From UHGV virus genome UHGV-1527372: 19,963 nucleotides of DNA; one strand, given 5' to 3'. The notes under the pieces are model-generated. The model saw nothing but the letters and a program-made list of their open reading frames with translations, made no database searches and had not been told where the DNA came from. Shown piece by piece: positions 121 through 18,676 of this stretch. Origin of the DNA: a virus. Within the stretch, counting starts at the first letter, position 1, and the number at the start of each line of letters is the position of its first letter. A program made the position numbers and the translations under genes.

Positions 121-144
121 ATAAAAAAACCTGCCGAAGCAGGT
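121..144 (-). terminator. Intrinsic terminator downstream of ogr
   Basis: Minus strand reads ACCTGC-TTCG-GCAGGT followed by TTTTTTTAT, immediately after the ogr TGA (145-147). Confidence 0.6.
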
Positions 145-363
145 TCAAAGCCAAAGTTGCTGTTGTTGGTTTCTGATGGGGTGTGGCGGAGCAGGATCAA
201 CAGTACCCGGTTTCACAATGAATCTTGATAGCGTCTCAAAAGTGATAAATGTACATCCGCAATTTATGTTCTGGCACTGGTGATAACGTTCTTTTGTTTC
301 GGTGCTAAGGTACCGGCTAGTGCGAGCATGTGCGGCGTTTTGGCATAACGGGCAGTGCATCAT
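145..363 (-). CDS. ogr: Ogr/Delta-family zinc-finger late-gene transcriptional activator (72 aa from the ATG ATG pair at 363/360)
   Basis: MMHCPLCQNAAHARTSRYLSTETKERYHQCQNINC... has the C-X2-C ... C-X4-C zinc-finger pattern and strong similarity to P2 Ogr as recalled. AGGGG RBS lies 7-8 nt upstream of the ATG. The 87-aa TTG-start version in the ORF track is not supported. Confidence 0.9.
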   Translation of the reverse strand: MMHCPLCQNAAHARTSRYLSTETKERYHQCQNINCGCTFITFETLSRFIVKPGTVDPAPPHPIRNQQQQLWL

Positions 364-394
364 AATTATTTCCCCTGCTGGCGTATCTGAGGGA

Positions 395-422
395 ATAATA
401 AACTTCAAAATTGCATTTGCAA
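395..422 (-). promoter_or_regulatory. Candidate sigma70 promoter for ogr
   Basis: Minus strand: -35 TTGCAA (417-422), 16-nt spacer, -10 TATTAT (395-400), about 30 nt upstream of the ogr ATG. Confidence 0.4.
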
Positions 423-438
423 GTTTTGGTTTGCTTTT

Positions 439-1608
439 TCACTCCTCATTTTCTTCTGAGCTGTACTCCACATCGGAGAGTTTAACCTCAAGCTCTAAGC
501 CCGTCGTGAAACCGTTATTATTGAGGTTGTGGGTCACCTTGCTGATTAACCATGCCTGCTCGTCTATGACGCGCTTAAAGCCTGACACGCGTACAGGCGT
601 CTCAGGAAATAAATCCGCTCGCCCTAGCGCCAGTGTGATTGAAAACTCCGCAACGCCTCGCTGCAGTTTATCCCACTTAGCCTGAGCGGCGCGCATCGCC
701 TGTGCCTTTGAGGCATAGACCGTCGTCAGCGCCAGCACGTTATCGGCTTCACCGGCCATGTACTCACCCTCACGTGCTTCCTGTTCTTTTTTGACCTTTG
801 TCTTTTTGCTGACCGGCTTTGCTTTTGGGTGTTCCAGTGCGCGCAGGTGCTTCTCTTTTGGCTTGCGTTTCAGCGTTACTTTCTGCTTTTGTGGCTTCGG
901 GTCTTTGGTGTGCAACCATTTAGCAGTGACGCCGGTATAAGCCCCACGGTCGGCAATGGCAAACTGATGACGGTCACCATCACTGCGGGTCAGCGTCATT
1001 TGCGGGACGGGTTTGCCGCTGGCCGTCATCGCACTACCGGCTTTCAGAAACAACAGTTTCCCTGCCTTCACCGATACCGTTGCCCCGTTGCGGTCAGCCA
1101 GTCGACTCAAAAATACCGCGTCGGATTCCTGCGACTGGTCGATATGCGGTACCGGGATTTTTTTCAGCGATTCCGCAATGCTGGCCGTCAGTTTGTTGCG
1201 CTTTGCGATGGTACTGACCAGTTCGCCGATGGTGGTGTCGTGCCATGACTCTTCACGCCTGGAATTTAGCGTGCCGCGAAAGTCCGCGCTGCGCGCCCGG
1301 ATGGTCAGGGTATCAGGAGCCCCCCGGTGCTCAATCTCATCGACCGTAAAATCCCCCTTATTCAGCAGCGCCGAACCCTGCCAGCCAAGCCACAACGTCA
1401 GCACTGCCCCGCGCAGGGGTAACTCGACTTTCCCATCGGTGTCATCGAGCTCAATGTCGAGCTGGTCAGCTTCAAAGCCCCTATTGTCCGTCATGGTGAG
1501 AGAAATCAGCCGGTCGCTGAAGTTGCTGGTAATGTCCTGACTGTTCAGCGTCAGCATAAAAGCCGGTGCAAGGCTAGCACCGGCGTCAATTGCCATCCCC
1601 GTTATCAT
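439..1608 (-). CDS. D: Tail protein D (P2 late control gene D family)
   Basis: 389-aa ORF with ATG start; its ATG overlaps the U stop (ATGA); position between U and ogr matches P2. Contains a Lys/Pro-rich low-complexity segment. Confidence 0.9.
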   Translation of the reverse strand: MITGMAIDAGASLAPAFMLTLNSQDITSNFSDRLISLTMTDNRGFEADQLDIELDDTDGKVELPLRGAVLTLWLGWQGSALLNKGDFTVDEIEHRGAPDTLTIRARSADFRGTLNSRREESWHDTTIGELVSTIAKRNKLTASIAESLKKIPVPHIDQSQESDAVFLSRLADRNGATVSVKAGKLLFLKAGSAMTASGKPVPQMTLTRSDGDRHQFAIADRGAYTGVTAKWLHTKDPKPQKQKVTLKRKPKEKHLRALEHPKAKPVSKKTKVKKEQEAREGEYMAGEADNVLALTTVYASKAQAMRAAQAKWDKLQRGVAEFSITLALGRADLFPETPVRVSGFKRVIDEQAWLISKVTHNLNNNGFTTGLELEVKLSDVEYSSEENEE

Positions 1609-2090
1609 GCAGTGAAACCTCCGGGCATACCCTGCAGTTTATCTGTCAAATTACCGGCAGAGCCGAGAAGCTCACTGGCCTGTTTATTCAGGTCACCAAA
1701 CATCTCTGTCAGCGATTCATCAACCCGTTTTAGCGAAAGCGTGAAATCAATCTTTCTGGCCGCACCATCACTGAAAAACTCGGTGCGTGTAGTCGATACT
1801 TTATCGACGATATACATCCCGAGGATATTTCCGGTTCCCTCTATCAACGGCCACGCTCTGCCTTCATTGGCCATCACCTCTACAGCCTTAAGTGAGATCC
1901 AACCGCCAGTGATAGCGGGGTATAGCGTACCAGCAAGCTGTATAGAATTTTCTCCCTCGCCAAGAAACTGATAGGCAGGTGGTTTACCCACCCGGTCATT
2001 GGACACCCAGCGATAATCTTTCGAATGCTGCATCGACTGGTAAGGCAGGGTGCGAAGTTCAAACACAAACATTCCGAGAGCAAGCATCAT
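1605..2090 (-). CDS. U: Tail protein U
   Basis: 161 aa starting MMLALGMFVFEL, synteny T-U-D, GGGAGA RBS upstream. Confidence 0.9.
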   Translation of the reverse strand: MMLALGMFVFELRTLPYQSMQHSKDYRWVSNDRVGKPPAYQFLGEGENSIQLAGTLYPAITGGWISLKAVEVMANEGRAWPLIEGTGNILGMYIVDKVSTTRTEFFSDGAARKIDFTLSLKRVDESLTEMFGDLNKQASELLGSAGNLTDKLQGMPGGFTA

Positions 2091-2103
2091 CGTTTAATCT
2101 CCC

Positions 2104-4548
2104 TCAATAGTCGTGGGTCATGTTGGCACGCTGGCGGGCGCGTTTATCGCGCTCAATCTGTTCGAGCGTGTCGCGTAGTTGTCTGTCAAGCTGATGCCCC
2201 GGCGCAACACCTCCCGGCAGATTGATGTTGTATTCGCTTTTGCTCTGGTCAATGTAAGAGCGCCCCGCCGGTGCGGTAACTGGCTGATAAGCCTGATAGC
2301 CGCCATATGTGCTGGTTGCCGGGATGTAGGAATTACCCTGTGTGGCGGCATTGGTTTTGGCGGCGGTCTGGTCGAGGCTGTCCGACTCTTTGTTGATGAT
2401 GCCGAGCTTTTCGAGAAGCCAGTCGACACCGCTGCGCAGCTTGTTAAAAACATTGAGCGGAGCCATCAAGGCAGAGGCCAGTGCCTGACCAAATATGACG
2501 CCGACATTTTTGCAGCTATCAAGCGTTTCCTGCGTGGCCTTAACCGGTGCTATCAGGTCTTTAAACCACTGCCAGACGCCGCGCAGTTTCTCGCCGAGAC
2601 CATCAAAAATGGGAGCCAGTGGAGCGAACATTTCCCCGACTGGGGCAAAGGCACTCATGATGCCCTCAATCACTCCCGAGAAAAATGCGCTGATGGGCTC
2701 CCAATATTTACGGATGAGTAGCGCCCCCGCCACAATCGCCGCACCGACGGCCACTATCGGCCAGGTAATCGCACCGAGCGCTGTCGCAATGGCACTACCG
2801 ACGACAGTAAAGACCGTACCCAGCACGCCAGCAGCGGCGATAATGGCATTAATCCCCATGACAACCGGCCACGCAACGAGACCAATGCCGCCGATGATAC
2901 CAATCAGCGCCAGCGCACCACCGGCGATGATGCCGATAGTTTCCGCTAACTCCTTGTTGTCTTTGATCCAGTCATCAAGCTTTAGCACATACCGTGTTGC
3001 TGTCTGAGTTAGCTGACGCAATGAGCTATCTTGCTGGTCGTAGAGGTCGGTACCGACGGCCTCATAAGCGGATTGAAACTCTTTGAAGTCGCCACCTAAG
3101 TTATCCTGCATGACCTTAACCAATTCCTCGGTTTTACCGTCAGAATCCTTAATTATCTTGGTCAGTTCATCCAGTTTTCCACTGGCCGCTGCGGCCATTA
3201 ACACACTTGCAGCGGAACTGGCTTCCTCGCCGAATATCGTTTTCATATACTCGGCTTTTTGACCTGTACCGAGGTTGTTGCGCTTAAAGCTGGCTTGTAT
3301 TTCTTTCAGGATGGTAAAGATTGGCCGTGTATTGCCTTTTTTATCCATCGTCTTAACGCCAAGCTCTTTAATGGCATCATAGGCTTTGCCAGTTGGAGCC
3401 TGCAGTCGACTTAAAACAGCTCGGCTACCAGTTCCTGCCATCGAACCTATGATTTTTGCATCGTGTAGCGCACCCAGCATCGCGGCGGTTTCTTCTAGGC
3501 TGACACCGGCATCTTTGGCAACTGGACCAACATATGTAAGTGAGTCGTTTAATCCCTCAAATGATGCCTGTGTTTTATTTATCGCCATCGATATGACATC
3601 TGCTATATGCGATGCCTTGTCATCTGCGAGCCCGAATGCCGATTTGGTGCCAATAAGCAAAGCGGCGTTTTCCTCCATAGTTTTTTTATTTGCCAGCGAC
3701 ATATTCAGAATGGCCGGTGTTTGCGCCACTATGCCGTCTTTATCTGCGCCAGATTTGGCTACAATAATCTGCGCGGCGGCGGCATCATCTGCTGAGGCCG
3801 CTGAGTTATCGCCGAGCTGACGCGCCTGTTTGCGTAGAGCCTGCATTTCTGGAGACTGCTTATCGACCCCAAGCACGGCCTGCAGCTCGGAGTTTTTTTG
3901 CGCAAAGTCATAACCGGGCATCAGCAATTTAACCCCGGCCATCGTTCCCGCTGTCGCAATACCGACCCCGGCAGCACCTGCAGCGGCCATGTTACCGGCA
4001 AGCTCCTTACCCGATTTATATCGCTCTTTCACTCGGTTTAGGTGCGCCTGCTGTGCGCTGACCTTCGCCAATGCTTCACGCTGCCGGTTGAGCTGCGCCG
4101 TCGTCTCGCTGATGCGTGTTTTAAGCCCCCGCTCATCGTTTGCCAGATTGCGGGTATTGATACCGGCGGCACCCAGCTCGCGTTGCTGGCGTTTAACCGA
4201 CTCGGTGAGGCTGTTGTATTTAATCTGCAGCCCCTCGGCGGCACGTTTTGCGGATTCGAGCACCTGTGCCTGCGCTCGCGTCGGGCGCTCAGTATTTTTG
4301 AATTGCGTGGCAAGCGCTTCAGCCTCGCGCTTTGCCTTCTCCAGCGACTGGCCGGTTACGGCCAGTTGAGCGCTGGTTTTGCGAAAACCGTCAATTTTCG
4401 CGGCCTGCCCGTTCAGGTCACGCAGCCCTTTTTGTGTGTCGCGAATATCGCCCGACAGGGTTTTACTCGCGGTCTGGATGGATTTAAGCGGTCGGGTCGC
4501 CTGGTCGACCGCTTTCAGCAAAACCTCAAGTCTCAGGTTATTACTCAT
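2104..4548 (-). CDS. T: Tail tape measure protein T
   Basis: 814 aa with a coiled-coil N-terminal part and Gly/Ala-rich hydrophobic segments typical of tape measure proteins; sits directly downstream of E/E'. Confidence 0.9.
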   Translation of the reverse strand: MSNNLRLEVLLKAVDQATRPLKSIQTASKTLSGDIRDTQKGLRDLNGQAAKIDGFRKTSAQLAVTGQSLEKAKREAEALATQFKNTERPTRAQAQVLESAKRAAEGLQIKYNSLTESVKRQQRELGAAGINTRNLANDERGLKTRISETTAQLNRQREALAKVSAQQAHLNRVKERYKSGKELAGNMAAAGAAGVGIATAGTMAGVKLLMPGYDFAQKNSELQAVLGVDKQSPEMQALRKQARQLGDNSAASADDAAAAQIIVAKSGADKDGIVAQTPAILNMSLANKKTMEENAALLIGTKSAFGLADDKASHIADVISMAINKTQASFEGLNDSLTYVGPVAKDAGVSLEETAAMLGALHDAKIIGSMAGTGSRAVLSRLQAPTGKAYDAIKELGVKTMDKKGNTRPIFTILKEIQASFKRNNLGTGQKAEYMKTIFGEEASSAASVLMAAAASGKLDELTKIIKDSDGKTEELVKVMQDNLGGDFKEFQSAYEAVGTDLYDQQDSSLRQLTQTATRYVLKLDDWIKDNKELAETIGIIAGGALALIGIIGGIGLVAWPVVMGINAIIAAAGVLGTVFTVVGSAIATALGAITWPIVAVGAAIVAGALLIRKYWEPISAFFSGVIEGIMSAFAPVGEMFAPLAPIFDGLGEKLRGVWQWFKDLIAPVKATQETLDSCKNVGVIFGQALASALMAPLNVFNKLRSGVDWLLEKLGIINKESDSLDQTAAKTNAATQGNSYIPATSTYGGYQAYQPVTAPAGRSYIDQSKSEYNINLPGGVAPGHQLDRQLRDTLEQIERDKRARQRANMTHDY

Positions 4549-5028
4549 TGTGGTGTCCGCTACGCTGCAGCGCCTTTTCGCGCCATGTGATGAGCTCGGT
4601 CAGGCTCAGGGAATAGAGCTCTGATAGCGGCCAGTGGAATATCACCGCGATATCCGCCATCAGGTCATCGGTCGACAGGTCGGGCGGGAAATCTACTCCG
4701 CCGAAGCCGGTGACAAAAAACCAATCACCTTAGCGGCCAGCGACAGCATATCGGGCAGGTTCATTGCGGTAAGCTCCTGCGCCGTAAGCGCGGGGTAGGT
4801 CATGCGTGGCAATACCTTAATCAGCGCATCGACTTCGGACTGCGCCACCGCTGCCAGACTGACACCGCGCAGGGTACCGGCGTTCGGCTCAATCAGTGTG
4901 ACTTTATCTATCGTCTGACCGGCGCGCTTAATCGGCTTGTCGAGGGTCACGACGTTCGGGTTTACGGTGTCAATTTCATTGCCAGCCATATCAACAAATT
5001 CAGCGGTTTTACGTGGTGCTTTTGCCAT
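4541..5028 (-). CDS. E+E': E+E' tail assembly chaperone made by programmed -1 ribosomal frameshift
   Basis: Slippery heptamer T TTT TTG at 4714-4720 (minus strand) inside E. The -1 frame stays open for 51 more codons (VTGFGGVDFPPDL...TWREKALQRSGHHNE) and stops at a TAA that overlaps the T start. Confidence 0.8.
4693..5028 (-). CDS. E: Tail assembly chaperone E (zero-frame product)
   Basis: 111 aa starting MAKAPRKTAEF with ATG start; position upstream of T. Confidence 0.9.
   Translation of the reverse strand: MAKAPRKTAEFVDMAGNEIDTVNPNVVTLDKPIKRAGQTIDKVTLIEPNAGTLRGVSLAAVAQSEVDALIKVLPRMTYPALTAQELTAMNLPDMLSLAAKVIGFLSPASAE
4714..4720 (-). other. -1 programmed frameshift slippery site (TTTTTTG)
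   Basis: Heptamer seen directly in the sequence; matches the conserved E/E' frameshift of P2-like phages. Confidence 0.8.
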
Positions 5029-5052
5029 GATGTTTTTCTCTGCTCTGAATGG

Positions 5053-5083: not shown

Positions 5084-5091
5084 TCAGGGAA

Positions 5092-5485
5092 TTACAGCCC
5101 GATTGCGCGGCGGTGCTGTTCCAGACGGTCGACGCCGTTCACCTTCTCAACCATGTTGACGGTATCGATTTCGATGACGTCGCTACCATCAATCGTGAGG
5201 CGGTAATAGGTGCATACGGTCGACAGTTTGGTCGAGGTGTTTTCACCCTGCTTATTCTCGCCGCCGTCGATTTCTTTATGACGGCCACGCATGACCACCT
5301 CGACCGCCACGATTTCGCCAGTGTCGTCACGTTGGTAAGAGCCAGCAAAACGCAACGGCACAGCGTCAGCACCCGGCGCGGCGTACTGCGCCCACAGCGC
5401 CACATCAGGCAGGCCACCGACAGACCACTCGACGGTTACCGTCGTTAATCTCAAGCACCTGCACGCCGTGGTGAAAATCACTCAT
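5092..5485 (-). pseudogene. FI/FII: Deletion-fusion remnant: first ~18 codons of tail sheath FI fused out of frame to the C-terminal ~112 codons of tail tube FII
   Basis: ATG at 5485..5483 encodes MSDFHHGVQVLEINDG (P2 FI N-terminus) and then hits a stop after ~10 junk codons. In another frame, from about 5430, the sequence encodes EWSVGGLPD...VNGVDRLEQHRRAIGL (C-terminal two-thirds of FII). There is no sheath-sized ORF anywhere in the window. Confidence 0.7.
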
Positions 5486-5611: not shown

Positions 5612-5616
5612 TCGCA

Positions 5617-6213
5617 TTACTCCGGTTTAACCGGCCACTCGATATCCGGTGCCGTGGAGGTATCGACCGCGTTCAGCGCCTGAATGTATTTCATCCACGC
5701 AATCAGGCTGTCCTTGTCATCGTCGCTGATGATGCCGAGCTGCAGCTCAGTCTGCCACAGGCTGATTGTGCTTTGGGCTTCGGCCAGCAATGAGGCTTTT
5801 TTCTGTTCTGCTGCTGCAATCTGACCGCTTTTCTGCGCATCCGCATTCGTAACCCATTCGCTACCGTTCCAGCGGTCATAAGGCGTCAGTGGTTCGATGA
5901 TGGTCACATTATCAGGATAATCACCGAGCCCGGTTATCTCGACAGGCTTGCCGGTTTCCGTGTCATATACAGTTTCTCCCCGGTGGTCGATAACATAAAC
6001 CCACCCATCAAGACTGACCGAGCGGCAAATGGCAAAACCGTCTTTCTCAGCTACCGGTGCATCGATACAGGAGTTGGCTGGAATCCCCACGCCCACCGCC
6101 AAAAACTCGGTGGAAGTCGACAAAAACTCTCGCGTTTCCCCGTCGTAGTTAAAGACCGTCACATCGCCAGCTTTTGTGGCAATACCACTTTTATTCAATG
6201 TTGCTTTCGCCAT
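5617..6213 (-). CDS. G: Tail fiber assembly protein G
   Basis: 198 aa with tail-fiber-assembly C-terminal motifs (PYDRWNG, SDDDK, APDIEWPVKPE); its ATG overlaps the H stop (TAATG). Confidence 0.85.
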   Translation of the reverse strand: MAKATLNKSGIATKAGDVTVFNYDGETREFLSTSTEFLAVGVGIPANSCIDAPVAEKDGFAICRSVSLDGWVYVIDHRGETVYDTETGKPVEITGLGDYPDNVTIIEPLTPYDRWNGSEWVTNADAQKSGQIAAAEQKKASLLAEAQSTISLWQTELQLGIISDDDKDSLIAWMKYIQALNAVDTSTAPDIEWPVKPE

Positions 6214-7295
6214 TATGCCGCCCTCACGATGTAATTAAATGCGATGTTGCGTGGTCGGGTTTCAGTTCCGCCTATAATATTGGTACTCAACCCGGTCGCG
6301 GTTCGCTTATTGTTTTTGTTACCTTCTGCAAGACAGTTGTAATCATCATTGCCGATTAGAGTGCCGTTGGCATCAATATCAAGCGGTGCCAGCGAGCTCG
6401 TCGCTGAGCTTAACGTCAGCATTTCATCCGAGCTTGGCAGACTTGTCAGAGGTACCTCGTTACGTGATACTCCTGCATAAAAATAGGACTCATGCCGATG
6501 AGCTTTGAAGTCATCTACTTGGGCACTGAGCAATACTCGACCGCTGTCAATACCTCGCCCGTCATCCCAGCCACGCAAAAACTCACCGCGTAAATCAGGC
6601 AGATTGCCAGAAGGATAAGCGACGGCCAGCTTTGGATATTTCGCCTTATCGAACGCTGCACCGTTGCATTTTAACCACCCCTCCGGCGGTGTTGCCTGCG
6701 GCCACGGCAGCGGAAAACCAACCGGAATATATTTATCAATATCCGCTGTTTTGAGGTACTGAGCGTGCGGGTCAGCAGCGGCAAGGTGTGCAGCCATCAG
6801 GCTATCGGCATAAGCTTTTACCTCGATAACCTTATCGTCGACATACTGGCGCGTTGCCAGCACGACCGACGGGTCGATTTTCAGGGTAATAGCCGACGTG
6901 CTCGACACAATCAGAATCATGCGAATGGTCTGCGTGCGGCCGCTTCCCTCCTGCAGTTGCGGCTTGTAGGTTTCCGGGCAGTTCGCCACGGCAATAAGCA
7001 CACCGGCATCATCATAGAGACCAATCTCGCGGATCCAGAAACCACCCTCATTCTCGGGAATAATTTGTTCCGCGATAATCTGGCTGGTATTGGCCGGGTC
7101 AACGGTCAGCAGGTTCAGCGGCGCGATGCGCTTCTGGTTAATGAGCTTCGTCTGCGCCGGGTCAGGGGTCGGCAACGTACCATTCGCATCACCGACGGCC
7201 ATCTGCGTCAGGTTGAGTTTGGTACCGAGTGCCGCCGCGTTCGCCAGCCGCGCCGCGCCCTGATTGGTCAGAATGGCAAAATATTTTGCGGTCAT
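6213..7295 (-). CDS. H: Tail fiber protein H (short form, 360 aa) with phage tail-collar-like C-terminal domain
   Basis: Conserved P2 H N-terminus (MAVGD..., GGFWIREIGLYDDAGVLIAVAN) and a collar-like C-terminal region (PEGWLKCNGAAFDKAKYPKLA...LPDLRGEFLRG). Confidence 0.85.
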   Translation of the reverse strand: MTAKYFAILTNQGAARLANAAALGTKLNLTQMAVGDANGTLPTPDPAQTKLINQKRIAPLNLLTVDPANTSQIIAEQIIPENEGGFWIREIGLYDDAGVLIAVANCPETYKPQLQEGSGRTQTIRMILIVSSTSAITLKIDPSVVLATRQYVDDKVIEVKAYADSLMAAHLAAADPHAQYLKTADIDKYIPVGFPLPWPQATPPEGWLKCNGAAFDKAKYPKLAVAYPSGNLPDLRGEFLRGWDDGRGIDSGRVLLSAQVDDFKAHRHESYFYAGVSRNEVPLTSLPSSDEMLTLSSATSSLAPLDIDANGTLIGNDDYNCLAEGNKNNKRTATGLSTNIIGGTETRPRNIAFNYIVRAA

Positions 7296-7900
7296 GCGTT
7301 CACTCTCAGGTTATCAATCAAATGGATGGCCGAGGCCGGGTAATATTCACCGCCGACGACAATTTCCTCAGGGGTGTAGGGGTAAACGGTCAGCGCGTCG
7401 CCGTCGTAACATCCCGCGCCGACATACAGCTCGCCGGTCGCACTCAGGCTGATAGCCAGCCCTGTCAAATGACGGCTTGCCGGTTTGGCGTCTTCAATCA
7501 GGCGCTCAAGCTCCTGATACATTTCGTCAGTGATGCCGCTATCGAGCACGCCGACAACGAGGCGGAATGTGCCAGGCTCCTCGTCGAGCTGCCACCACTC
7601 GCGCACCTCAATCAGAAAACCGAGCGGCTCAACCACCCGACGCAATGCGCTGATGGTGCCTTTGTGCTGATGGACGAAAAACGAAGACGCGCAGACGCTG
7701 CGCTTTGTCGCCTCCGGCCACTTCTCATCCCACCGGTCGACCGACAGCGCCCACGCCAGATACGGCAGCAGGTTTACCGGGCAGGTACGCCAGTTCCACA
7801 GGGTGCGCAACGGTACCGGCACGCGCTGAATCTCAGAAAGTGCAGCAGCGGCGGCAACTTCCAGCGGCGACGAGCCAGCGGGTAACAGCCTGTCACTCAT
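7292..7900 (-). CDS. I: Baseplate protein I
   Basis: 202 aa starting MSDRLLPAGSSPLEVAAA with WNWRTCP and RWDEKWPEATKR motifs; stop overlaps H start, start overlaps J stop. Confidence 0.9.
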   Translation of the reverse strand: MSDRLLPAGSSPLEVAAAAALSEIQRVPVPLRTLWNWRTCPVNLLPYLAWALSVDRWDEKWPEATKRSVCASSFFVHQHKGTISALRRVVEPLGFLIEVREWWQLDEEPGTFRLVVGVLDSGITDEMYQELERLIEDAKPASRHLTGLAISLSATGELYVGAGCYDGDALTVYPYTPEEIVVGGEYYPASAIHLIDNLRVNA

Positions 7901-11363: not shown

Positions 11364-11646
11364 CGCTATCCCCCTGTTGTGACTTAAAGCGGCGCTGAAT
11401 GGCAATTTCTACCACCTGATAACCTGCAATGCCGAGCATGGATCCAATCCCACAAACGGCAGGCAGTGACATATCTGGAAACTGCACCAGAACAACACCG
11501 GCGACCATTGAAACAAAACCGCCGAGCAGCATGCGGCCGATAAACAGGCGCGGGGTAATGGGCTCACCACCCGCCAGCACTTTTCCGACAACAATCATCA
11601 CGCCAATCACAAACAGTGACAGGACGCCTTTTTCCCCTTCTGTCAT
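11350..11646 (-). CDS. Y: Holin Y
   Basis: 98 aa with hydrophobic TM segments, GGGAG RBS, position between X and K. Confidence 0.85.
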   Translation of the reverse strand: MTEGEKGVLSLFVIGVMIVVGKVLAGGEPITPRLFIGRMLLGGFVSMVAGVVLVQFPDMSLPAVCGIGSMLGIAGYQVVEIAIQRRFKSQQGDSDAGH

Positions 11647-11649
11647 GGT

Positions 11650-11853
11650 TTACTCCCAAAGGTTGATAGTTTCTGTTACGGGTGACGATGCCACGTCGGG
11701 CAGGTCAATCGCCGTGCCATGCGGCAGAATGACGCCCAGCTCAGACAGACCGGGATTAGCCTGCAGCACCGTCTCGACCACGCCCTCAGTGCGCCCGTAA
11801 TACCGGGCGCAAAGCGCGTCGAGGGTGTCGCCCTGCATCGCGTAGACTTTCAT
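11650..11853 (-). CDS. X: Tail protein X (LysM-like)
   Basis: MKVYAMQGDTLDALCARYYGRTEGVVETVLQANPGLSELGVILPHGTAIDLPDV... matches P2 X as recalled; start at internal ATG 11853, overlapping the L stop. Confidence 0.85.
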   Translation of the reverse strand: MKVYAMQGDTLDALCARYYGRTEGVVETVLQANPGLSELGVILPHGTAIDLPDVASSPVTETINLWE

Positions 11854-12362
11854 CAGAGCTGACCCACGATGCAGCGCGGCTTGTCCTGCAGACGCGAGAC
11901 CGACCAGCGCATATCCCGCCACAGGTCATCAATGGTGGTTTCGACGCTGTCGGCTTTTTTGTCACCCTTGCCCGTGGCCTCAACCCCGCGATAACGCTCA
12001 TACAGGGTGGCGGTCGCCATCGCCGTCACGGCGCTGAGGTAGTGGAAAACGCGCACATTCTCGCCGTCGATTTCCTCGGCGTCAGGCACGTCGGCCAGTG
12101 TCTTAAACCCTGCGGCAATCTGGCGCAGCCGGTAGTCGTAAAGCTCCGCATTGGTTTCCGCCATGCCGGTCTTGATGGCGTTGCGCAGGCGCGCATCGGA
12201 AACCGTCTGCTCAAGGCGCATCAGTTCGCGCACCCGCTTCGGATCCACATCAGGGAAAAAGAACGTGTTTTTAATCACTGCGTCGCCCGTCTCCGGTGCG
12301 GGAATCACCACGCCCGGTACGTCCTGCGGTTCGTCGGGCTGATTCAGTATTACTGTCGTCAT
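11853..12362 (-). CDS. L: Head completion/stabilisation protein L
   Basis: 169 aa, GAGG RBS, synteny M-L-X. Confidence 0.85.
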   Translation of the reverse strand: MTTVILNQPDEPQDVPGVVIPAPETGDAVIKNTFFFPDVDPKRVRELMRLEQTVSDARLRNAIKTGMAETNAELYDYRLRQIAAGFKTLADVPDAEEIDGENVRVFHYLSAVTAMATATLYERYRGVEATGKGDKKADSVETTIDDLWRDMRWSVSRLQDKPRCIVGQL

Positions 12363-12455: not shown

Positions 12456-13205
12456 TTAACCGGCGGTTTTTACCGCCTTTGGTGGACGCCCGCGCTTTGC
12501 CGCCGGTTTGTTGGCAGGTTTGCGCGTGCGCGGTTTAGTCGTTTTACGGGGCGCGGCCTCTGGCTTTGGCTTCAATGCCCGTTCCAGTCGCTCAATCTCC
12601 TTGCGCACACCGGCATTGCGGTCGAGCTGCATCGCGCGCTGAAACTGCGCCAGCGCCTCTGCATTCATACCGGCATCACGCAGGGTCAGGCCTGTCACCT
12701 TATGCAGACGGGCGCGCACCATATCGGGAACGTCAGCGCCGTCGGTCAGGTCGATAGTGGTCTGCAGCCAGGAACGGTCGACAGACTCACCGGCATCGCG
12801 CAGGCGCTGCGTAGCAAGCGCCACTTCCTCAACCAGCATGTAAGGTGTTGTGCGGCGGTGGTCAGAGGTGAGGCCGTATTTCAGCGCGTACGGGGCAATT
12901 TCCAGCGCGCCAGCGATATCACCGGCATCGAGACGCCACAGCATGACGGTCATGACAATGTCATCCTGCGCACCACGGCCATCAGCCAGCACACCGGCGA
13001 CCCACGGCGCATAGAACGGCAGCAGCTCGCGCTTTTTCTCGGCTTTACGTTCGTTTGAACGGATGTTTTTTAACGTGCGGCGGTCATCGGCCAGCTTAAC
13101 CAGCATCTGCTCATAGGCGGTTGCATGGCGCAGCGGGGCTTGCTCCCGCTGCGCGGCTTGAGAGGCCGAGACCCGCATCATGTGACGCTGTGCGGGGCTC
13201 GTCAT
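12456..13205 (-). CDS. M: Terminase small (endonuclease) subunit M
   Basis: 249 aa, basic C-terminal tail, ATG 4 nt after the N stop. Confidence 0.85.
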   Translation of the reverse strand: MTSPAQRHMMRVSASQAAQREQAPLRHATAYEQMLVKLADDRRTLKNIRSNERKAEKKRELLPFYAPWVAGVLADGRGAQDDIVMTVMLWRLDAGDIAGALEIAPYALKYGLTSDHRRTTPYMLVEEVALATQRLRDAGESVDRSWLQTTIDLTDGADVPDMVRARLHKVTGLTLRDAGMNAEALAQFQRAMQLDRNAGVRKEIERLERALKPKPEAAPRKTTKPRTRKPANKPAAKRGRPPKAVKTAG

Positions 13206-13208
13206 GGT

Positions 13209-14276
13209 TTAGGCTCCGCTTTCCGGTGCTGCAGGTGCGGTGAAATCGCCCAGGGTGATGTTTTCCAGCAGGCACCCGGCGGCATACGCCTCGACCACAT
13301 AGTCGATGTTCATCGACTCGTAGTTTTCAACGCGGTCTTTTTTCGGGTTTTCATCAATGCTGCGGCGGTGGCTCTCATCCATGAAATAGATAGAGAGGTT
13401 TTCCAGCGTGGTCACTAACACGGCATTCGCCGGGAAGTACGGCACACGCACAGCAGGCAGGTTGCCGATTCGCTTCTGACTGATGATGATATCTGCCGCA
13501 AGCGCCTCGCTGTTTTCCTGCGGCTTGTTCACCAGCGGGAAATATTTGTCGGCCAGCAGCTTACGGCCAACGATGGCAACGAGTTTCGGGTCATCCTGAT
13601 AAACCTCGTCAATCAGGTTGTTGGTGGCGTCCATCACCAGCGCGTCGAGGTTCTCATAGTCGCCGTTTCGACCTACACGAATCACTGCTGAAACGACCTT
13701 ACCGTCAGCGTCGGTGATGTTGCTCATCACGCGCGTCGGGGCTTCATTGCGGTATTTCTGCAGCCAGCCGACGGCCACATCCTGCAGCATCGGATTTTTG
13801 GTGCGGTCAGAGGTGGCGGCGCGGGTGGTACCGTTAAAACCGGCCATGATGAAATCCAGTGCCTGACGTTTGACAATGGCGTCGCGGATGCGGCGCTGGA
13901 AGTCCTGAAAACGCGCCCACAGGTCGAGGGTTTTATATTTCAGATGGAAGTCAAAATTAATTTGGTCGCACTCGTACTTGTTGGACTCAAGCGCGGTGAA
14001 GTCGGCGGTCTTACGCTCATCATCGCCCGAGGTGTCGGTCGTGCTGGCGATAGTACCGGTCACACCGACGCCGATTTTCTCACCCTTCATTTCTGCGACC
14101 GGCAGAATATTAATCGTCTGCAGAAACGCGGATGACTCCTGCACTTTGTTCATCAGTGTTTGCGTGACGGACGGCTCGACGGTGAATTTTTTACTGACGT
14201 CATCAGTGCTGATGCCGTTCAGCTCAGCGACGCGGGTCAGATAGGCATTGAACTTAAAACGGGTATCCGGGCGCAT
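13209..14276 (-). CDS. N: Major capsid protein N
   Basis: 355 aa, AGGAAA RBS, synteny O-N-M. Confidence 0.9.
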   Translation of the reverse strand: MRPDTRFKFNAYLTRVAELNGISTDDVSKKFTVEPSVTQTLMNKVQESSAFLQTINILPVAEMKGEKIGVGVTGTIASTTDTSGDDERKTADFTALESNKYECDQINFDFHLKYKTLDLWARFQDFQRRIRDAIVKRQALDFIMAGFNGTTRAATSDRTKNPMLQDVAVGWLQKYRNEAPTRVMSNITDADGKVVSAVIRVGRNGDYENLDALVMDATNNLIDEVYQDDPKLVAIVGRKLLADKYFPLVNKPQENSEALAADIIISQKRIGNLPAVRVPYFPANAVLVTTLENLSIYFMDESHRRSIDENPKKDRVENYESMNIDYVVEAYAAGCLLENITLGDFTAPAAPESGA

Positions 14277-14352
14277 AGTATTTCCTGTTTGAATTTATCG
14301 GTTAGTCACTGCATCGGGCGGGGATGCCGCCCGGTTTCTGGTCTGCGGTTTA

Positions 14353-15207
14353 TCAGCAGTCGGTCAGCAGCTCATCGCCACCACCGCCGCTGGCTTTCGT
14401 GCGTCGCGGCTGGCTGAAACTTTCGGTTTTGTCGAGGGTGGTTTTCAGGTCGGAAAATGCCTGGCTGGTTTCTTCAACCTTGCCGGTCAGTTCCTGTTTG
14501 AAAGTGGCAAACGCGGTTTCCATAGCGGAAAGGCGCTCGTCCTGTTTTGTCAGGTTGGTTTGCACATGTTCGCTGACGGTGGTCACCGCTTCATGCACAT
14601 CATTCAGGCGCGCATCGTCGCTGACCTGCTTACGGCTGAAAATGGCTTTCACCTTATCGGCCAGGCTGTTGAGCACCGTGTCGGGAACGTCTTCAAACTC
14701 CAGCTCGGCCAGAGTGGCAGCGGAAAAGACGTTTTCAGGGTTGGCCTTAAAGCGCTGCAGTGGGTTGTGCTTCGCGTTGCGGCAGAATTCGAGGTATTCA
14801 GTGCCGAGGCTCGCCGGGTCATCGGTGACAGCAAGGCCGACGAGGTAGCATTTGCCGGTATTGGCAAAATTCGGCTGAATTTCCATTGAGGTGTAGACCT
14901 TCTGCAATTTTTTATTCATCGCAATCAGGTCGTCGGTTGGGGTGATTCTGGCGAACAACGCCCATTTGCCGTTAAGCGCAGAATCGTCGTCAATTATTTC
15001 AGCTTTCAGTTCAACCACATCGCCTAAGCGTTTGAAGTCGCCATCAGGAAAGAGACCGCGAATATGCTCAAGGTTAATGCGGCAACCGTAGACGCGAGGG
15101 TCAAACGATTCGGCCATTTCCTGAATATCGTTGCCGCTGATAATGCGGCCGTCGCAGGTGTCACCCTCGACGCCGATGCGAAAGAATTTTGAGACTTTTT
15201 TTGCCAT
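14353..15207 (-). CDS. O: Capsid scaffolding protein O
   Basis: 284 aa starting MAKKVSKFFRIGVEGDTCDGR; first gene of the rightward late operon, divergent from P. Confidence 0.9.
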   Translation of the reverse strand: MAKKVSKFFRIGVEGDTCDGRIISGNDIQEMAESFDPRVYGCRINLEHIRGLFPDGDFKRLGDVVELKAEIIDDDSALNGKWALFARITPTDDLIAMNKKLQKVYTSMEIQPNFANTGKCYLVGLAVTDDPASLGTEYLEFCRNAKHNPLQRFKANPENVFSAATLAELEFEDVPDTVLNSLADKVKAIFSRKQVSDDARLNDVHEAVTTVSEHVQTNLTKQDERLSAMETAFATFKQELTGKVEETSQAFSDLKTTLDKTESFSQPRRTKASGGGGDELLTDC

Positions 15208-15372: not shown

Positions 15373-17142
15373 ATGACCATTTCCACAGATACAACCTTGT
15401 TGCATGACCCGCGACGGCAGGCATCGCTGCTTTACTGGCAGGGTTTTTCCGTGCCACAGATTGCCGAAATGCTGCAGGTCAAGCGCCCGACCGTGCAGAG
15501 CTGGAAGCAGCGCGACGGCTGGGACGGCATCGCGCCGATTTCCCGCGTTGAAAGCAGCCTTGAGGCCAGGCTGATTCAGCTCATCGCCAAGCCGCAAAAG
15601 ACAGGGGGTGATTTCAAAGAGATTGACCTGCTCGGACGGCAGATTGAACGGTTGGCGCGAGTCAACCGCTACAGCCAGACCGGCAACGAAGCCGACCTTA
15701 ACCCCAACGTCGCCAACCGCAACAAAGGGGAGCGCAAAAAGCCGAAAAAGAATTTTTTCAGCGACGAGGCTATCGATAAACTAGAGGAATTATTTTTCGA
15801 CCAGTCTTTCGAGTACCAGTTGCAGTGGTACCGCGCAGGACTGGAGCACCGTATTCGTGACATTCTCAAATCCCGCCAGATTGGCGCGACATTCTATTTC
15901 TCCCGCGAGTCACTGCTGCGCGCACTCAAAACTGGCCATAACCAGATATTTTTATCAGCCAGTAAAACGCAGGCTTACGTGTTCCGCGAATACATCATCC
16001 AGTTTGCGCGACTGGTCGACGTTGACCTGACTGGCGATCCGATTGTCATCGGTAACAACGGCGCAAAACTGATTTTTCTCGGTACCAATTCCAACACCGC
16101 GCAGAGCCATAACGGCGATCTGTATGTCGATGAAATATTCTGGATCCCGAATTTTCAGAAACTGCGCAAAGTCGCCTCGGGCATGGCCTCGCAAAAGCAC
16201 CTGCGCTCGACCTATTTTTCGACACCTTCCACGCTGGCGCACGGCGCTTACCCCTTCTGGTCTGGCGAGCTGTTCAACAAGGGGCGCAGCCGGATTGCCG
16301 ACCGCATCGAAATCGACATCAGTCACAGCGCGCTCGCCGGTGGCCAGCTCTGCGACGATGGCCAGTGGCGGCAGATTGTCACCATTGAGGACGCCCTTGC
16401 CGGTGGCTGCACCCTGTTCGACCTCGACCAGCTCAAACGCGAAAACAGTGATGAGGACTTTAAGAACCTGTTTATGTGCGAGTTTGTCGACGATAAAGCG
16501 TCGGTATTCCCGTTCGAGGAGCTGCAGCGCTGCATGGTCGATGTGATAGAGGAATGGGAGGACTTTGCCCCGTTCGCCGACCATCCGTTCGGCTCTCGTC
16601 CTGTCTGGATTGGCTACGACCCGTCACACACCGGCGACAGTGCCGGGTGCGTCGTGCTCGCGCCGCCGGTGGTCTCTGGTGGCAAGTTCCGCATGCTGGA
16701 GCGCCACCAGTGGAAGGGCATGGATTTTGCAGCACAGGCAGAGGGCATCCGCAAGCTGACCGAGAAATACAACGTCGAATACATCGGCATTGACGCAACC
16801 GGCCTCGGTCTCGGCGTGTTCCAGCTGGTGCGCTCATTTTACCCGGCGGCACGCGGCATCCGTTACACACCTGAAATGAAAACCGCAATGGTACTCAAGG
16901 CGAAAGACACCATTCGCCGTGGCTGTCTGGAGTACGACGCCGGAGCAACCGACGTCACGCAGTCGTTTATGTCCATCCGCAAAACCATGACCAGCAGCGG
17001 GCGCAGCGCCACCTATGAGGCCAGCCGCACCGAGGAAGCCAGCCACGCCGATATCGCATGGGCGACCATGCACGCCCTGTTAAACGAACCGCTTTCTGCC
17101 GGTAGCGGCATGCAGCCTAAATCTATTCTGGAGTTCAACTAA
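15373..17142 (+). CDS. P: Terminase large (ATPase) subunit P
   Basis: 589 aa, typical P2 gpP length and position, followed 1 nt later by Q. Confidence 0.9.
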   Translation: MTISTDTTLLHDPRRQASLLYWQGFSVPQIAEMLQVKRPTVQSWKQRDGWDGIAPISRVESSLEARLIQLIAKPQKTGGDFKEIDLLGRQIERLARVNRYSQTGNEADLNPNVANRNKGERKKPKKNFFSDEAIDKLEELFFDQSFEYQLQWYRAGLEHRIRDILKSRQIGATFYFSRESLLRALKTGHNQIFLSASKTQAYVFREYIIQFARLVDVDLTGDPIVIGNNGAKLIFLGTNSNTAQSHNGDLYVDEIFWIPNFQKLRKVASGMASQKHLRSTYFSTPSTLAHGAYPFWSGELFNKGRSRIADRIEIDISHSALAGGQLCDDGQWRQIVTIEDALAGGCTLFDLDQLKRENSDEDFKNLFMCEFVDDKASVFPFEELQRCMVDVIEEWEDFAPFADHPFGSRPVWIGYDPSHTGDSAGCVVLAPPVVSGGKFRMLERHQWKGMDFAAQAEGIRKLTEKYNVEYIGIDATGLGLGVFQLVRSFYPAARGIRYTPEMKTAMVLKAKDTIRRGCLEYDAGATDVTQSFMSIRKTMTSSGRSATYEASRTEEASHADIAWATMHALLNEPLSAGSGMQPKSILEFN

Positions 17143-17143
17143 A

Positions 17144-18190
17144 ATGGGTAAACAAAAATCCCGTAAAGCCAACGCACAAAAGGCCAGCAAACCACAACAA
17201 CTGACCGCCAGCGCACCACCAAAAACGACAGCGTTCACCTTCGGCGAGCCGGTGCCGGTACTCGATAAGCGCGACATTCTGGATTACGTCGAGTGCATCA
17301 GTAACGGCAAATGGTACGAGCCGCCGGTCAGCTTCTCAGGGCTGGCAAAGAGCCTGCGCTCTGCCGTGCATCACAGCTCGCCAATTTATGTTAAGCGTAA
17401 CGTGCTCGCGAGCACCTACATTCCGCACCCGTTGTTATCCCGTCAGGATTTCAGCCGCTTTGCGCTCGATTATCTGGTGTTCGGTAACGCCTTTCTTGAG
17501 CAGCGCCACAGCGTCACCGGCCAGTTAATCAAACTGCTGGCCTCGCCAGCCAAATACACCCGACGCGGAGTCGACGATTCGATTTTCTGGTTTGTGGAAA
17601 ACTTCACCCAGCCGCACGAGTTCGCGCCTGATACCGTGTTTCACCTGCTGGAGCCCGACATTAATCAGGAGATTTACGGTCTGCCGGAATATCTCAGCGC
17701 GCTTAATTCCGCTTGGCTGAATGAATCCGCGACGCTGTTCCGCCGCAAGTATTATCAGAACGGCGCGCACGCAGGCTACATCATGTATGTGACTGACCCG
17801 GCGCAAAGTGCGACCGACGTCGAATCGCTGCGCGAGGCGATGCGTAACTCGAAGGGACTCGGCAACTTTAAGAACCTGTTTTTCTACGCCCCCGGCGGAA
17901 AACCGGACGGCATCAAAATCGTGCCACTGAGCGAGGTCGCCACAAAGGATGACTTTTTCAACATTAAGAAAGCCAGCGCCGCCGACCTGATGGACGCGCA
18001 CCGCGTGCCGTTCCAGCTCATGGGCGGCAAGCCCGAGAATATCGGTTCACTCGGTGACGTTGAGAAGGTGGCAAAGGTATTTGTGCGTAATGAGCTGTCA
18101 CCCCTGCAGGATAGGTTCAGGGAGGTAAACGACTGGCTCGGTATGGAGGTCATCAGGTTCAAAGAGTACACACTCGACAACCCGGAATAA
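17144..18190 (+). CDS. Q: Portal protein Q
   Basis: 348 aa, last gene before cos as in P2. Confidence 0.9.
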   Translation: MGKQKSRKANAQKASKPQQLTASAPPKTTAFTFGEPVPVLDKRDILDYVECISNGKWYEPPVSFSGLAKSLRSAVHHSSPIYVKRNVLASTYIPHPLLSRQDFSRFALDYLVFGNAFLEQRHSVTGQLIKLLASPAKYTRRGVDDSIFWFVENFTQPHEFAPDTVFHLLEPDINQEIYGLPEYLSALNSAWLNESATLFRRKYYQNGAHAGYIMYVTDPAQSATDVESLREAMRNSKGLGNFKNLFFYAPGGKPDGIKIVPLSEVATKDDFFNIKKASAADLMDAHRVPFQLMGGKPENIGSLGDVEKVAKVFVRNELSPLQDRFREVNDWLGMEVIRFKEYTLDNPE

Positions 18191-18200
18191 TCACCTTTTA

Positions 18201-18225
18201 AGCCGCCATTTTGGCGGCTTTTGCT
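18201..18225 (+). terminator. Intrinsic terminator after Q
   Basis: AGCCGCC-ATTTT-GGCGGCT followed by TTTTGCT, 10 nt after the Q stop. Confidence 0.65.
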
Positions 18226-18228
18226 ATG

Positions 18229-18453
18229 TTAGCCTTTAGACTTTTTAGGATCATCTTTTCTCTGATAAGTGCGTTCTTCCTGAATTTTCCCATCTTCCTT
18301 GTGAATTTTGACCGAGCCTGTTTTGTTCGACATAAACTCAGATGTTGTTTTAATCAGCTCGGCCTTTGTGGGCGCGGTCTTGCTAGGGCGGTCATTGCCC
18401 TCTTTTTGCAACTTCCACTTATCGCCATCTTTTGTAATATGATAGTTATCCAT
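18229..18453 (-). CDS. DUF2188-like small protein (moron between portal gene and cos)
   Basis: MDNYHITKDGDKWKLQKEGNDRPSKTAPTKAELIKTTSEFMSNKTGSVKIHKEDGKIQEERTYQRKDDPKKSKG fits the DUF2188 pattern as recalled. Strong GGAGG RBS 5 nt upstream of the ATG at 18453. Markedly AT-rich compared with the phage backbone. Confidence 0.6.
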   Translation of the reverse strand: MDNYHITKDGDKWKLQKEGNDRPSKTAPTKAELIKTTSEFMSNKTGSVKIHKEDGKIQEERTYQRKDDPKKSKG

Positions 18454-18546
18454 TAAAGCCTCCAACTGTTGTGGGGAACATAAAGTCTCAATATGGATAT
18501 TAGCCAAAGCGAAACCGTAAAATTGTGCAACTGATCCCATCCTTTA

Positions 18547-18646
18547 GCACCACGCCACAGACGCACCACGCGCCCACGATCACACCCGGCCACTACAGCG
18601 CCGTCACGACGTTCTCAGACGATAATTTTTAATAATACGCACCACC
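18547..18646. repeat. Three GCACCAC(G/C) direct repeats flanking the cos side (candidate terminase recognition elements)
   Basis: GCACCACG at 18547-18554 and 18563-18570, GCACCACC at 18639-18646, all within about 110 bp of the cos core. Confidence 0.3.
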
Positions 18647-18657
18647 GCTGGCGCGCA

Positions 18658-18676
18658 ATGCTTTCCCCGCCACGCC
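18658..18676 (-). other. cos: cos cohesive-end core, 186-type
   Basis: Minus strand reads GGCGTGGCGGGGAAAGCAT, which matches the 19-nt cohesive end of phage 186 as I recall it (the P2 end differs at two positions); located just beyond Q as expected. Confidence 0.7.

What the first reader, a model, noticed from the sequence alone, without database searches (positions are those of the whole stretch)
121..18676. Prophage retains intact head, packaging and lysis modules but has a doubly disrupted tail module
ogr, D, U, T, E/E+E', G, H, I, J, S, R, lysB/lysC, K, Y, X, L, M, N, O, P, Q and cos all look intact (ATG starts, coupled overlaps, conserved frameshift site), whereas FI, FII, V and W are broken by two discrete deletions. 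That is not the pattern of uniform pseudogenisation. It could be a recently inactivated prophage, or an element kept for capsid/packaging or lysis functions (for example as a helper for P4-like satellites or as a lysis cassette). This is speculation from gene content only.
Basis: inference. Interest (0 to 1): 0.35.

Follow-up and report, generated by a model that had tools for sequence, protein, structure and literature searches.

The report
Freshly broken P2/186-like prophage
This is the late-gene half of an ordinary P2/186-type prophage of E. coli that very recently lost four tail genes through two small deletions and has an IS1 element at its edge; the other genes look intact simply because there has been no time for them to decay.

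Summary
The window is the late region of a 186/PSP3-like (P2 family) prophage next to rplS. Compared with intact relatives, a 1,319-bp deletion (junction 5438/5439) removes nearly all of the sheath gene FI and the first 57 codons of the tube gene FII. A 417-bp deletion (junction 8946/8947) removes the last ~69 codons of V and the first ~68 of W. The other 22 late genes, the E/E' slippery site and cos are intact. The deletions are real: the same V' ORF occurs on 11 contigs, and the seven retrieved, from seven independent samples, are at least 99.98% identical to the window. A third lesion was missed: an IS1 end at 19910 truncates a dinI-like gene, and the window stops inside it. "Recently inactivated" is strongly supported. 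Two genomes carry the intact prophage with only 4-5 substitutions over 15.8 kb. At that divergence only 0.06-0.3 further disabling point mutations are expected, so the intact head and lysis genes say nothing about selection. Two random deletions would hit only tail genes with probability 0.13-0.33. "Kept for capsid, packaging or lysis functions" has no support. The early region could not be retrieved. Ordinary; low interest.

The parts
1..88 (+). Host DNA immediately downstream of rplS, including the rplS terminator hairpin
   Evidence: Window position 1 aligns to the base after the rplS stop codon in L002 and L010
89..103 (.). Probable att core, TGGCGGCAGAGGTTG
   Evidence: The same 15-mer recurs at the integrase-proximal end of the complete related prophage in ETEC1716, L010 45171-45185. 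Its role as att core is inferred.
145..363 (-). ogr/B-type zinc-finger late-gene activator, 72 aa, intact
   Evidence: 100% identical to the L002 protein; Pfam Ogr_Delta, E = 1.8e-20
439..5028 (-). Tail genes D (439-1608), U (1605-2090), T tape measure (2104-4548), E' (4544-4678) and E (4693-5028), with the slippery site GGTTTTTTG at about 4714-4722; all intact
   Evidence: Full-length matches at 100% identity to L002; slippery site read directly
5092..5438 (-). FII (tail tube) remnant: codons 58-172 only, with no native start
   Evidence: tblastn covers residues 58-172; Pfam Phage_tube profile positions 54-165 of 165
5438..5439 (.). Junction of deletion 1: 1,319 bp missing, with exact 2-bp (TA) and imperfect 5/6 microhomology and no IS at the junction
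5405..5485 (-). FI (tail sheath) remnant: native ATG and about 16 codons, then out of frame to a stop, giving a 26-aa ORF
5617..8801 (-). G tail-fibre assembly (5617-6213), H tail fibre (6213-7295), I (7292-7900) and J (7893-8801); all intact
   Evidence: Full-length matches at 99.3-100% identity; Pfam families on the identical contig L003
8808..8946 (-). W (gp25-like baseplate protein) remnant: last ~46 codons only, with no start
   Evidence: tblastn covers residues 69-115
8946..8947 (.). Junction of deletion 2: 417 bp missing, with 2-bp (TA) microhomology
8813..9370 (-). V' ORF of 185 aa: V codons 1-142 (OB domain kept, spike domain lost) followed by 43 out-of-frame residues read through the W remnant
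   Evidence: Pfam finds Phage_base_V only, whereas intact relatives also have Phage_spike
9439..12362 (-). S (9439-9888), R (9881-10348), lysC (10311-10556), lysB (10456-10869), K endolysin (10866-11363), Y holin (11350-11646), X (11650-11853) and L (11853-12362); all intact
12456..15207 (-). M small terminase (12456-13205), N major capsid (13209-14276) and O scaffold (14353-15207); all intact
15373..18190 (+). P large terminase (15373-17142) and Q portal (17144-18190); both intact
18229..18453 (-). DUF2188 cargo gene (74 aa) between Q and cos
   Evidence: Pfam DUF2188, E = 1.5e-18; PHROG 3220
18658..18676 (-). 19-nt cos cohesive-end sequence, GGCGTGGCGGGGAAAGCAT
   Evidence: One match with 2 mismatches to P2 cos; 0.03 expected by chance
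18885..19540 (-). Small cargo ORFs of 33 aa (18885-18986), 64 aa (19003-19197) and 69 aa (19331-19540), all of unknown function
   Evidence: Gene calls on identical or related contigs; PHROGs 2454 and 11386, function unknown
19736..19909 (-). dinI-like gene remnant: codons 21-77, with the first 20 codons cut off
   Evidence: Alignment to the L002 DinI-family gene stops at 19909
19910..19963 (.). Terminal 54 nt of an IS1 element; the window ends inside it
   Evidence: Matches more than 71,000 IS1 copies in E. coli genomes

Best explanation
The window is the late (virion and lysis) half of a 186/PSP3-like member of the P2 family (Peduoviridae), integrated between rplS and yfiB in an E. coli-type chromosome. 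The phage entered this host lineage recently as a functional phage. It then suffered two independent, microhomology-flanked internal deletions. One removed the sheath gene FI and the 5' third of the tube gene FII. The other fused a truncated spike gene V, out of frame, to the 3' end of the baseplate gene W. An IS1 insertion or IS1-mediated truncation also occurred in the dinI-like gene. The element is therefore a young defective prophage and cannot build a tail. The rest of its late genes are intact because almost no time has passed, not because they are being preserved. If the early region beyond IS1 survives, induction should still give DNA-filled tailless heads and lysis. That last step is inferred from P2 tail-mutant genetics and was not shown here.
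For: Family and gene order come from megablast to Peduoviridae phages and annotated prophages, Pfam families on the identical contig, cos, the E/E' slippery site and Ogr_Delta. The lesions were mapped against several intact references. They are real and heritable: the V' ORF is on 11 contigs, and seven retrieved contigs from seven samples are 99.98-100% identical to the window. They are recent. The intact prophages in GCA_900449305.1 (L031) and GCA_052874175.1 (L030) differ from the window by 4 and 5 substitutions over 15,796 bp, and two of those sites are polymorphic inside the deletion lineage itself. In the right-hand block, L020 and L028 differ by 3 substitutions in about 10 kb and carry intact V and W. 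There is no signal of selective retention. Only 0.06-0.3 disabling point mutations are expected in the remaining genes, and the chance that both deletions fall only in tail genes is 0.33 or 0.13. The few within-lineage changes include two amino-acid replacements, D A302T and J A195S, against one synonymous change. Decay is commonplace in this prophage family. ETEC1716 has a V pseudogene, an IS1 between N and O, and a frameshifted gpA. Strain 52F4 has ISEc12 inserted in U. A survey reports that 98% of P2-like elements have at least one pseudogene, with no core gene always hit (PMC13586616). The phage was mobile recently: the 1,188-bp host flank differs at 4 sites between L030 and L031, a higher rate than in their prophages.
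Against: Three structural lesions against at most 4-5 point substitutions in about 19 kb is a high ratio for neutral decay, judged by my recollection of E. coli mutation-accumulation rates. That leaves room for selection, or for a locally raised breakage rate. Tail-gene loss alone would not protect the host from lysis on induction, so host-level selection for these particular deletions is not obvious. The state of the early region is unknown. No experiment shows what is produced on induction.
Confidence: 0.85

Rival explanations
1. The tailless prophage is maintained by selection as a producer of capsids and packaging machinery. It might help satellites, or its own DNA-filled heads might acquire tails from another P2-like phage in the same cell or environment. 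Alternatively it could be kept as a lysis cassette.
For: Head, terminase, portal, cos and lysis genes are all open and near-identical to those of intact phages. Both deletions are internal to their operons and keep the FI and V start codons and upstream regions. Defective prophages can be packaged and transferred through complementation by co-resident prophages (PMC2669165). Capsid-forming PICIs spread as tail-less capsids that acquire phage tails (titles and abstracts of bioRxiv 10.1101/2022.09.08.507074 and 10.1101/2025.02.11.637232).
Against: No time has passed in which selection could have acted or be detected: 4-5 substitutions to the intact relatives and 0-2 within the lineage. Eleven tail genes are retained, which a dedicated capsid-only element would not need. 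The lesions are frameshifting truncations, not a tidy module loss. Junction 1 is absent from all 5,426 complete E. coli genomes and from GTDB representatives, IMG/VR and JGI metagenomes; no complete genome spans the deletion-2 region in one piece. P4-type satellites need the helper's tails. IS1 has already hit the element.
Confidence: 0.05
2. The structural lesions were positively selected because inactivating the prophage benefits the host. Alternatively they are scars of double-strand breaks in the prophage, for example from self-targeting defence or abortive induction, repaired by microhomology end-joining.
For: There are three structural lesions but at most 4-5 substitutions in 19 kb. Both deletion junctions have only 2-bp exact microhomology and no IS. 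A paper whose abstract reports that prophage carriage is costly through frequent reactivation was listed (PMC4752277; abstract only, not read further).
Against: Loss of sheath, tube, spike and W does not stop replication or lysis, so it should not rescue an induced cell (established P2 genetics). The ratio argument rests on three events and on rates recalled from memory. No defence system or spacer was examined.
Confidence: 0.08
3. The deletions are assembly or sequencing artefacts.
For: The window appears to end at a contig break inside IS1, which suggests a short-read draft assembly (inference).
Against: Identical junctions appear on contigs assembled independently from different samples with different assemblers (Logan, ENA k119_, NODE_ and scaffold names), with 0-2 mismatches.
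Confidence: 0.01

Closest known systems
Intact prophages at the rplS-yfiB locus of E. coli GCA_900449305.1 (UGDB01000003.1), GCA_052874175.1 (JAIOOF010000001.1) and FDAARGOS_1253 (NZ_CP069549.1)
   Same: Same integration site, gene order and sequence. The first two differ by 4-5 substitutions over 15.8 kb. FDAARGOS_1253 differs by 2 substitutions over the first 8.2 kb.
   Different: They have full-length FI (392 aa), FII (172 aa), V (211 aa) and W (115 aa). Close relatives of the right-hand block (L022, L025, FDAARGOS_1253) have an uninterrupted dinI-like gene. The window lacks 1,319 and 417 bp and has IS1 at 19910.
Phages 186 and PSP3 and other isolated Peduoviridae (SEN1, SW9, Midge, EtG)
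   Same: Same late-gene order over 80-88% of the window at 89-91% nucleotide identity. The cos matches what I recall for phage 186 (plus own knowledge). Close relatives have a 186-type early region with CI, CP76/CII, Fil, Dhr and DinI.
   Different: Those are complete, plaque-forming phages. This copy cannot make a tail, and its early region was not seen.
Sp13, the defective P2-like prophage of E. coli O157 Sakai (PMC2669165)
   Same: A P2-family prophage with morphogenetic defects that sits among other mobile elements. That paper shows such elements can still be induced and packaged with help.
   Different: Sp13 lacks most morphogenetic genes, including head and packaging genes. The element here keeps everything except four tail genes and is far younger.
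Capsid-forming PICIs (cf-PICIs)
   Same: They encode capsid and packaging functions, make no tails, and rely on foreign tails (abstracts).
   Different: cf-PICIs are dedicated satellites with their own regulation and no tail genes. This element is a full phage genome 99.97% identical to intact phages. It still carries 11 tail genes, and its lesions are fresh truncations.
R-type tailocins / phage tail-like bacteriocins
   Same: They are also prophage derivatives that keep one structural module and a lysis cassette (own knowledge).
   Different: The pattern is the opposite: tailocins keep tails and lose heads, and they are conserved across lineages.

Membership tests
P2-like phage/prophage (Peduoviridae) | P2 late-gene order: ogr-D-U-T-E/E'-FII-FI-G-H-I-J-W-V-S-R-lysis-X-L-M-N-O, then P-Q on the opposite strand | tested here: met
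   FI, FII, W and V are present only as remnants
P2-like phage/prophage (Peduoviridae) | 19-nt cos site next to the portal gene | tested here: met
   18658-18676, with 2 mismatches to P2 cos; 0.03 expected by chance
P2-like phage/prophage (Peduoviridae) | Ogr/Delta-type zinc-finger late activator | tested here: met
   Pfam PF04606, E = 1.8e-20
P2-like phage/prophage (Peduoviridae) | E/E+E' programmed -1 frameshift site (TTTTTTG) | tested here: met
   GGTTTTTTG at about 4714-4722 on the minus strand, with the E' frame open. Frameshifting itself was not tested.
P2-like phage/prophage (Peduoviridae) | Late promoters with the TGT-N12-ACA activator-binding dyad | tested here: inconclusive
   The strict motif is not found upstream of the operons. 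The upstream regions are identical or near-identical to those of intact relatives.
186-like subgroup | Early region with CI, CII(CP76), Fil, Tum and DinI, replication gene A and integrase | not testable with these tools
   Only a dinI remnant lies in the window. The full set is seen in near-identical relatives. The region beyond IS1 in this lineage could not be retrieved.
Defective (cryptic) prophage | At least one gene essential for virion production is inactivated | tested here: met
   FI, FII, V and W are truncated. Their essentiality comes from P2 genetics (own knowledge).
Domesticated prophage remnant retained under selection | The same degraded architecture conserved across diverged lineages, with purifying selection on the retained genes | tested here: not met
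   Carriers are clonal, with 0-2 SNPs. Junction 1 is absent from 5,426 complete E. coli genomes, GTDB representatives, IMG/VR and JGI metagenomes, and no complete genome spans the deletion-2 region in one piece. There is too little divergence for dN/dS.
Capsid-forming satellite (cf-PICI-like) | A small element with capsid and packaging genes, no tail genes, and its own satellite regulation | tested here: not met
   Eleven intact tail genes are retained, and the whole phage backbone is 99.97% identical to intact prophages
Tailocin | Complete tail module with loss of head and packaging genes | tested here: not met
   Opposite pattern

The most novel reading that the evidence does not exclude
Loss of sheath, tube, spike and W is not accidental. 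The element would persist or spread as a tailless head producer whose DNA-filled capsids are completed by tails from other P2-like phages. That would be a phage caught in transition toward a cf-PICI-like, tail-borrowing lifestyle. Alternatively, the tail genes were specifically selected against in this host. The excess of structural lesions over point substitutions is the only hint.
Probability: 0.04. Interest if true: 0.55.

Novelty: new member of a known kind. Interest (0 to 1): 0.1.

Why it matters
It matters little by itself. It is a clean, well-dated snapshot of the first steps of prophage decay: intact and broken copies differ by a handful of substitutions. Such a pair could serve as a natural isogenic control for studying how fast and by what lesions P2-like prophages are inactivated. 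It also shows that intact neighbouring genes next to a broken module are not evidence of selective retention unless enough divergence has accumulated.

Tried and rejected
1. Assembly artefact: rejected, because identical junctions occur in independent samples.
2. IS-mediated deletions: rejected, because no IS sequence lies at either junction, only 2-bp microhomology.
3. One hit (H34, ETEC1716) seemed to extend through the IS1 junction. Its IS1 actually lies between N and O, so this was a coincidence of piece-joining.
4. Searches for the FI/FII junction and the dinI-IS1 junction in complete E. coli genomes found none. Scans of GTDB representative genomes and JGI metagenomes with both junctions, and of IMG/VR with the FI/FII junction, also found none. 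The source organism and the DNA beyond IS1 therefore stay unknown.
5. Look-ups of window proteins near the IS1 end (the 69-aa ORF and DUF2188) returned only other lineages, which have an intact dinI and no IS1.
6. A strict TGT-N12-ACA late-promoter search was uninformative: one match, below chance, and not at a late operon.
7. An Rfam scan of the window found nothing.
8. dN/dS or any other selection test is impossible with 4-5 substitutions.
9. My first estimate of the deletion sizes (1,313 and 415 bp) ignored the overlap of the BLAST pieces. The corrected values are 1,319 and 417 bp.
Full report
**What the window is.** Megablast places the whole window in the P2 family (Peduoviridae). It covers 80-88% of the window at 89-95% identity to PSP3, SEN1, SW9, Midge, EtG and a predicted E. 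coli prophage. It reaches 97% coverage at 98.3% identity to an annotated prophage next to rplS in E. coli FDAARGOS_1253. Window position 1 is the first base after the rplS stop codon. A 15-bp sequence at 89-103 recurs at the integrase end of a complete relative and is probably the att core (inference). On the minus strand the gene order is ogr, D, U, T, E'/E, FII', FI', G, H, I, J, W', V', S, R, lysC, lysB, K, Y, X, L, M, N, O. P and Q follow on the plus strand, then a DUF2188 gene, cos, three small ORFs and a dinI-like gene. Close relatives carry a 186-type early region with DinI, a 60-aa ORF, gpA, TraR-like, DUF2732, Fil, CP76/CII, CI and integrase. The element therefore belongs to the 186/PSP3-like branch.

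**Checking the observation.** I translated the 33 annotated genes of the intact FDAARGOS_1253 prophage and ran tblastn against the window.
- ogr, D, U, T, E, E', G, H, I, J, R, lysC, lysB, Y, X, L, M, O, P and Q match over their full length without gaps. K and N match to within one residue of the end.
- S matches residues 1-147 of 151. It is a 149-aa variant also found in ETEC1716.
- FII matches only residues 58-172, FI only about its first 16-20 residues, W only residues 69-115 and V only residues 1-142.
- Pfam agrees: the FII remnant covers profile positions 54-165 of 165, and V' keeps the OB domain but not the Phage_spike domain seen in intact relatives.
- All 22 remaining late ORFs are open.
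- The E/E' slippery site GGTTTTTTG is present, and cos is at 18658-18676.
- From its native ATG, FI now encodes a 26-residue peptide. V' encodes 142 V residues plus 43 out-of-frame residues.

**The deletions.** Deletion 1 removes 1,319 bp (junction 5438/5439) and deletion 2 removes 417 bp (junction 8946/8947), measured against near-identical intact prophages. Each junction has only a 2-bp exact microhomology (TA); junction 1 also has an imperfect 5/6 match. Neither has IS sequence. Both deletions lie inside their operons and keep the FI and V start codons and upstream regions.

**They are real.** The exact 185-aa V' ORF is found on 11 contigs, including Logan assemblies and several ENA gut metagenome assemblies. 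The seven contigs retrieved, from seven different samples, are 99.98-100% identical to the window over 1.2-19.4 kb. Both junctions are present wherever the contig reaches them. This is a heritable feature of one clonal lineage.

**A third lesion.** At 19910 the alignment to every relative stops inside the dinI-like gene. The last 54 nt of the window are an IS1 end, with more than 71,000 matches in E. coli genomes. The longest contig from another sample stops at the equivalent of window position 19936, also just inside IS1 (inference). No complete E. coli genome has this junction. The pattern is also absent from GTDB representative genomes and JGI metagenomes. I could not determine whether the early region continues beyond IS1.

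**How old the lesions are.** This is the decisive point.
- L031 (GCA_900449305.1) and L030 (GCA_052874175.1) carry the same prophage at the same locus with intact FI (392 aa), FII (172 aa), V (211 aa) and W (115 aa).
- They differ from the window at only 4 and 5 positions over 15,796 bp. Two of those positions (55 and 13479) are polymorphic within the deletion lineage itself.
- For the right-hand block, L020 and L028 differ at 3 positions in about 10 kb. L022 and L025 differ at 12 positions in 11 kb, right up to the IS1 junction, and have an intact dinI and a full early region.
- The host flank (1,188 bp of rplS-trmD) differs at 4 sites between L030 and L031. Per base that is more than their prophages differ, which suggests the intact phage was spreading horizontally until very recently.

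**Does the pattern argue for selective retention?** No.
- With 2-10 substitutions in the window, only 0.06-0.3 disabling point mutations are expected in the 16.4 kb of remaining late genes, so the probability of seeing none is 0.74-0.94.
- Tail genes occupy 57% of the late region. Two random deletions of these sizes hit only tail genes with probability 0.33 within the late region, or 0.13 over a 33-kb prophage.
- The few within-lineage changes include two replacements (D A302T, J A195S) and one synonymous change, which is no sign of constraint.
- Related prophages at the same locus are also decaying in various places. ETEC1716 has a V pseudogene, an IS1 between N and O, and a frameshifted gpA. 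Strain 52F4 has ISEc12 inserted in U.
- A recent survey reports that 98% of P2-like elements contain at least one pseudogene, with no core gene consistently hit (PMC13586616).

**Mechanism.**
- Shown: the sheath, tube, spike and W genes are destroyed, and everything else in the late region is intact.
- Inferred from P2 genetics: no tail can be assembled. If the early region survives, induction would give DNA-filled tailless heads and lysis but no infectious particles. A P4-type satellite would also lack tails.
- Complementation by another resident P2-like phage is conceivable, as described for defective prophages of O157 Sakai (PMC2669165) and, in a different setting, for cf-PICIs. Nothing here indicates it.

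**What remains unexplained.** Three structural lesions against at most 4-5 substitutions is a high ratio for neutral decay, by my recollection of mutation-accumulation rates. It could reflect selection for inactivation, break-prone episodes such as abortive induction, or chance. I could not test this.

**Verdict.** The 'recently inactivated' interpretation is supported, and the 'retained for function' interpretation is not. This is an ordinary young defective 186-like prophage, a new instance of a well-known kind, and of low interest.

Noticed in passing
window 19910-19963: An IS1 end abuts a truncated dinI-like gene (19736-19909), and the window stops 54 nt into it. No complete E. coli genome shares this junction.
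   Followed up: partly
window 1-19909 as a whole: There are three structural lesions (two deletions and IS1) but only 4-5 point differences from intact relatives. This ratio of structural to point changes looks high for neutral decay and is unexplained.
   Followed up: no
L030 and L031 17533-18720; L003 19371-20558: The host flank (rplS-trmD, 1,188 bp) differs at 0-5 sites among carriers, and at 4 sites between L030 and L031. Their prophages differ at only a handful of sites in 15.8 kb. The phage is younger than its hosts' divergence, which suggests recent horizontal spread.
   Followed up: partly
window ~8187 (inside J) onward, compared with L002: There is a sharp mosaic boundary relative to the FDAARGOS_1253 prophage: 2 mismatches in 1-8186, then 3-5% divergence. 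Other relatives (L030, L031, L020, L028) stay near-identical across this point, so FDAARGOS_1253 is a recombinant relative.
   Followed up: yes
window 9371-9438 and 18191-18657: Two cargo hotspots vary among relatives. The V-S spacer is empty here but holds a pentapeptide-repeat protein in L002 and L011, and other hypothetical proteins in L010 and L012. The Q-cos spacer holds a 74-aa DUF2188 gene here but a 334-aa hypothetical protein in L002, an nSTAND1 NTPase in L011 and two hypothetical proteins in L010; a Ser/Thr kinase lies further toward gpA in L010 and L026. This fits the published gpA-gpQ defence hotspot (PMC13586616).
   Followed up: partly
window 18885-18986 (-): A 33-aa hydrophobic ORF (MLSLVYENPWTTIFLMIVASMCLNSVIGALRGH) lies just past cos, and a hairpin with a T-run follows its stop codon. 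It is called as a gene in several relatives (L013, L015, L023, L025) and has no Pfam or PHROG match. It could be a small membrane peptide or toxin.
   Followed up: no
L010 (ETEC1716) and L011 (52F4): Sister prophages at the same locus carry their own independent lesions. ETEC1716 has a V pseudogene, an IS1 between N and O, and a frameshifted gpA. 52F4 has ISEc12 in U and a frameshifted invertase. Decay of this prophage family is frequent and hits different genes.
   Followed up: partly
L017 7060-8825 (CP081762.1): This relative has an extra 248-aa Terminase_6N ORF between a 340-aa portal gene and the full-length large terminase. This is an unusual partial duplication or insertion in the packaging module.
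   Followed up: no
window 89-103; L010 45171-45185: The 15-bp repeat TGGCGGCAGAGGTTG occurs at both ends of the prophage family. At the far end it overlaps the 3' end of the integrase gene. It is the probable att core.
   Followed up: partly
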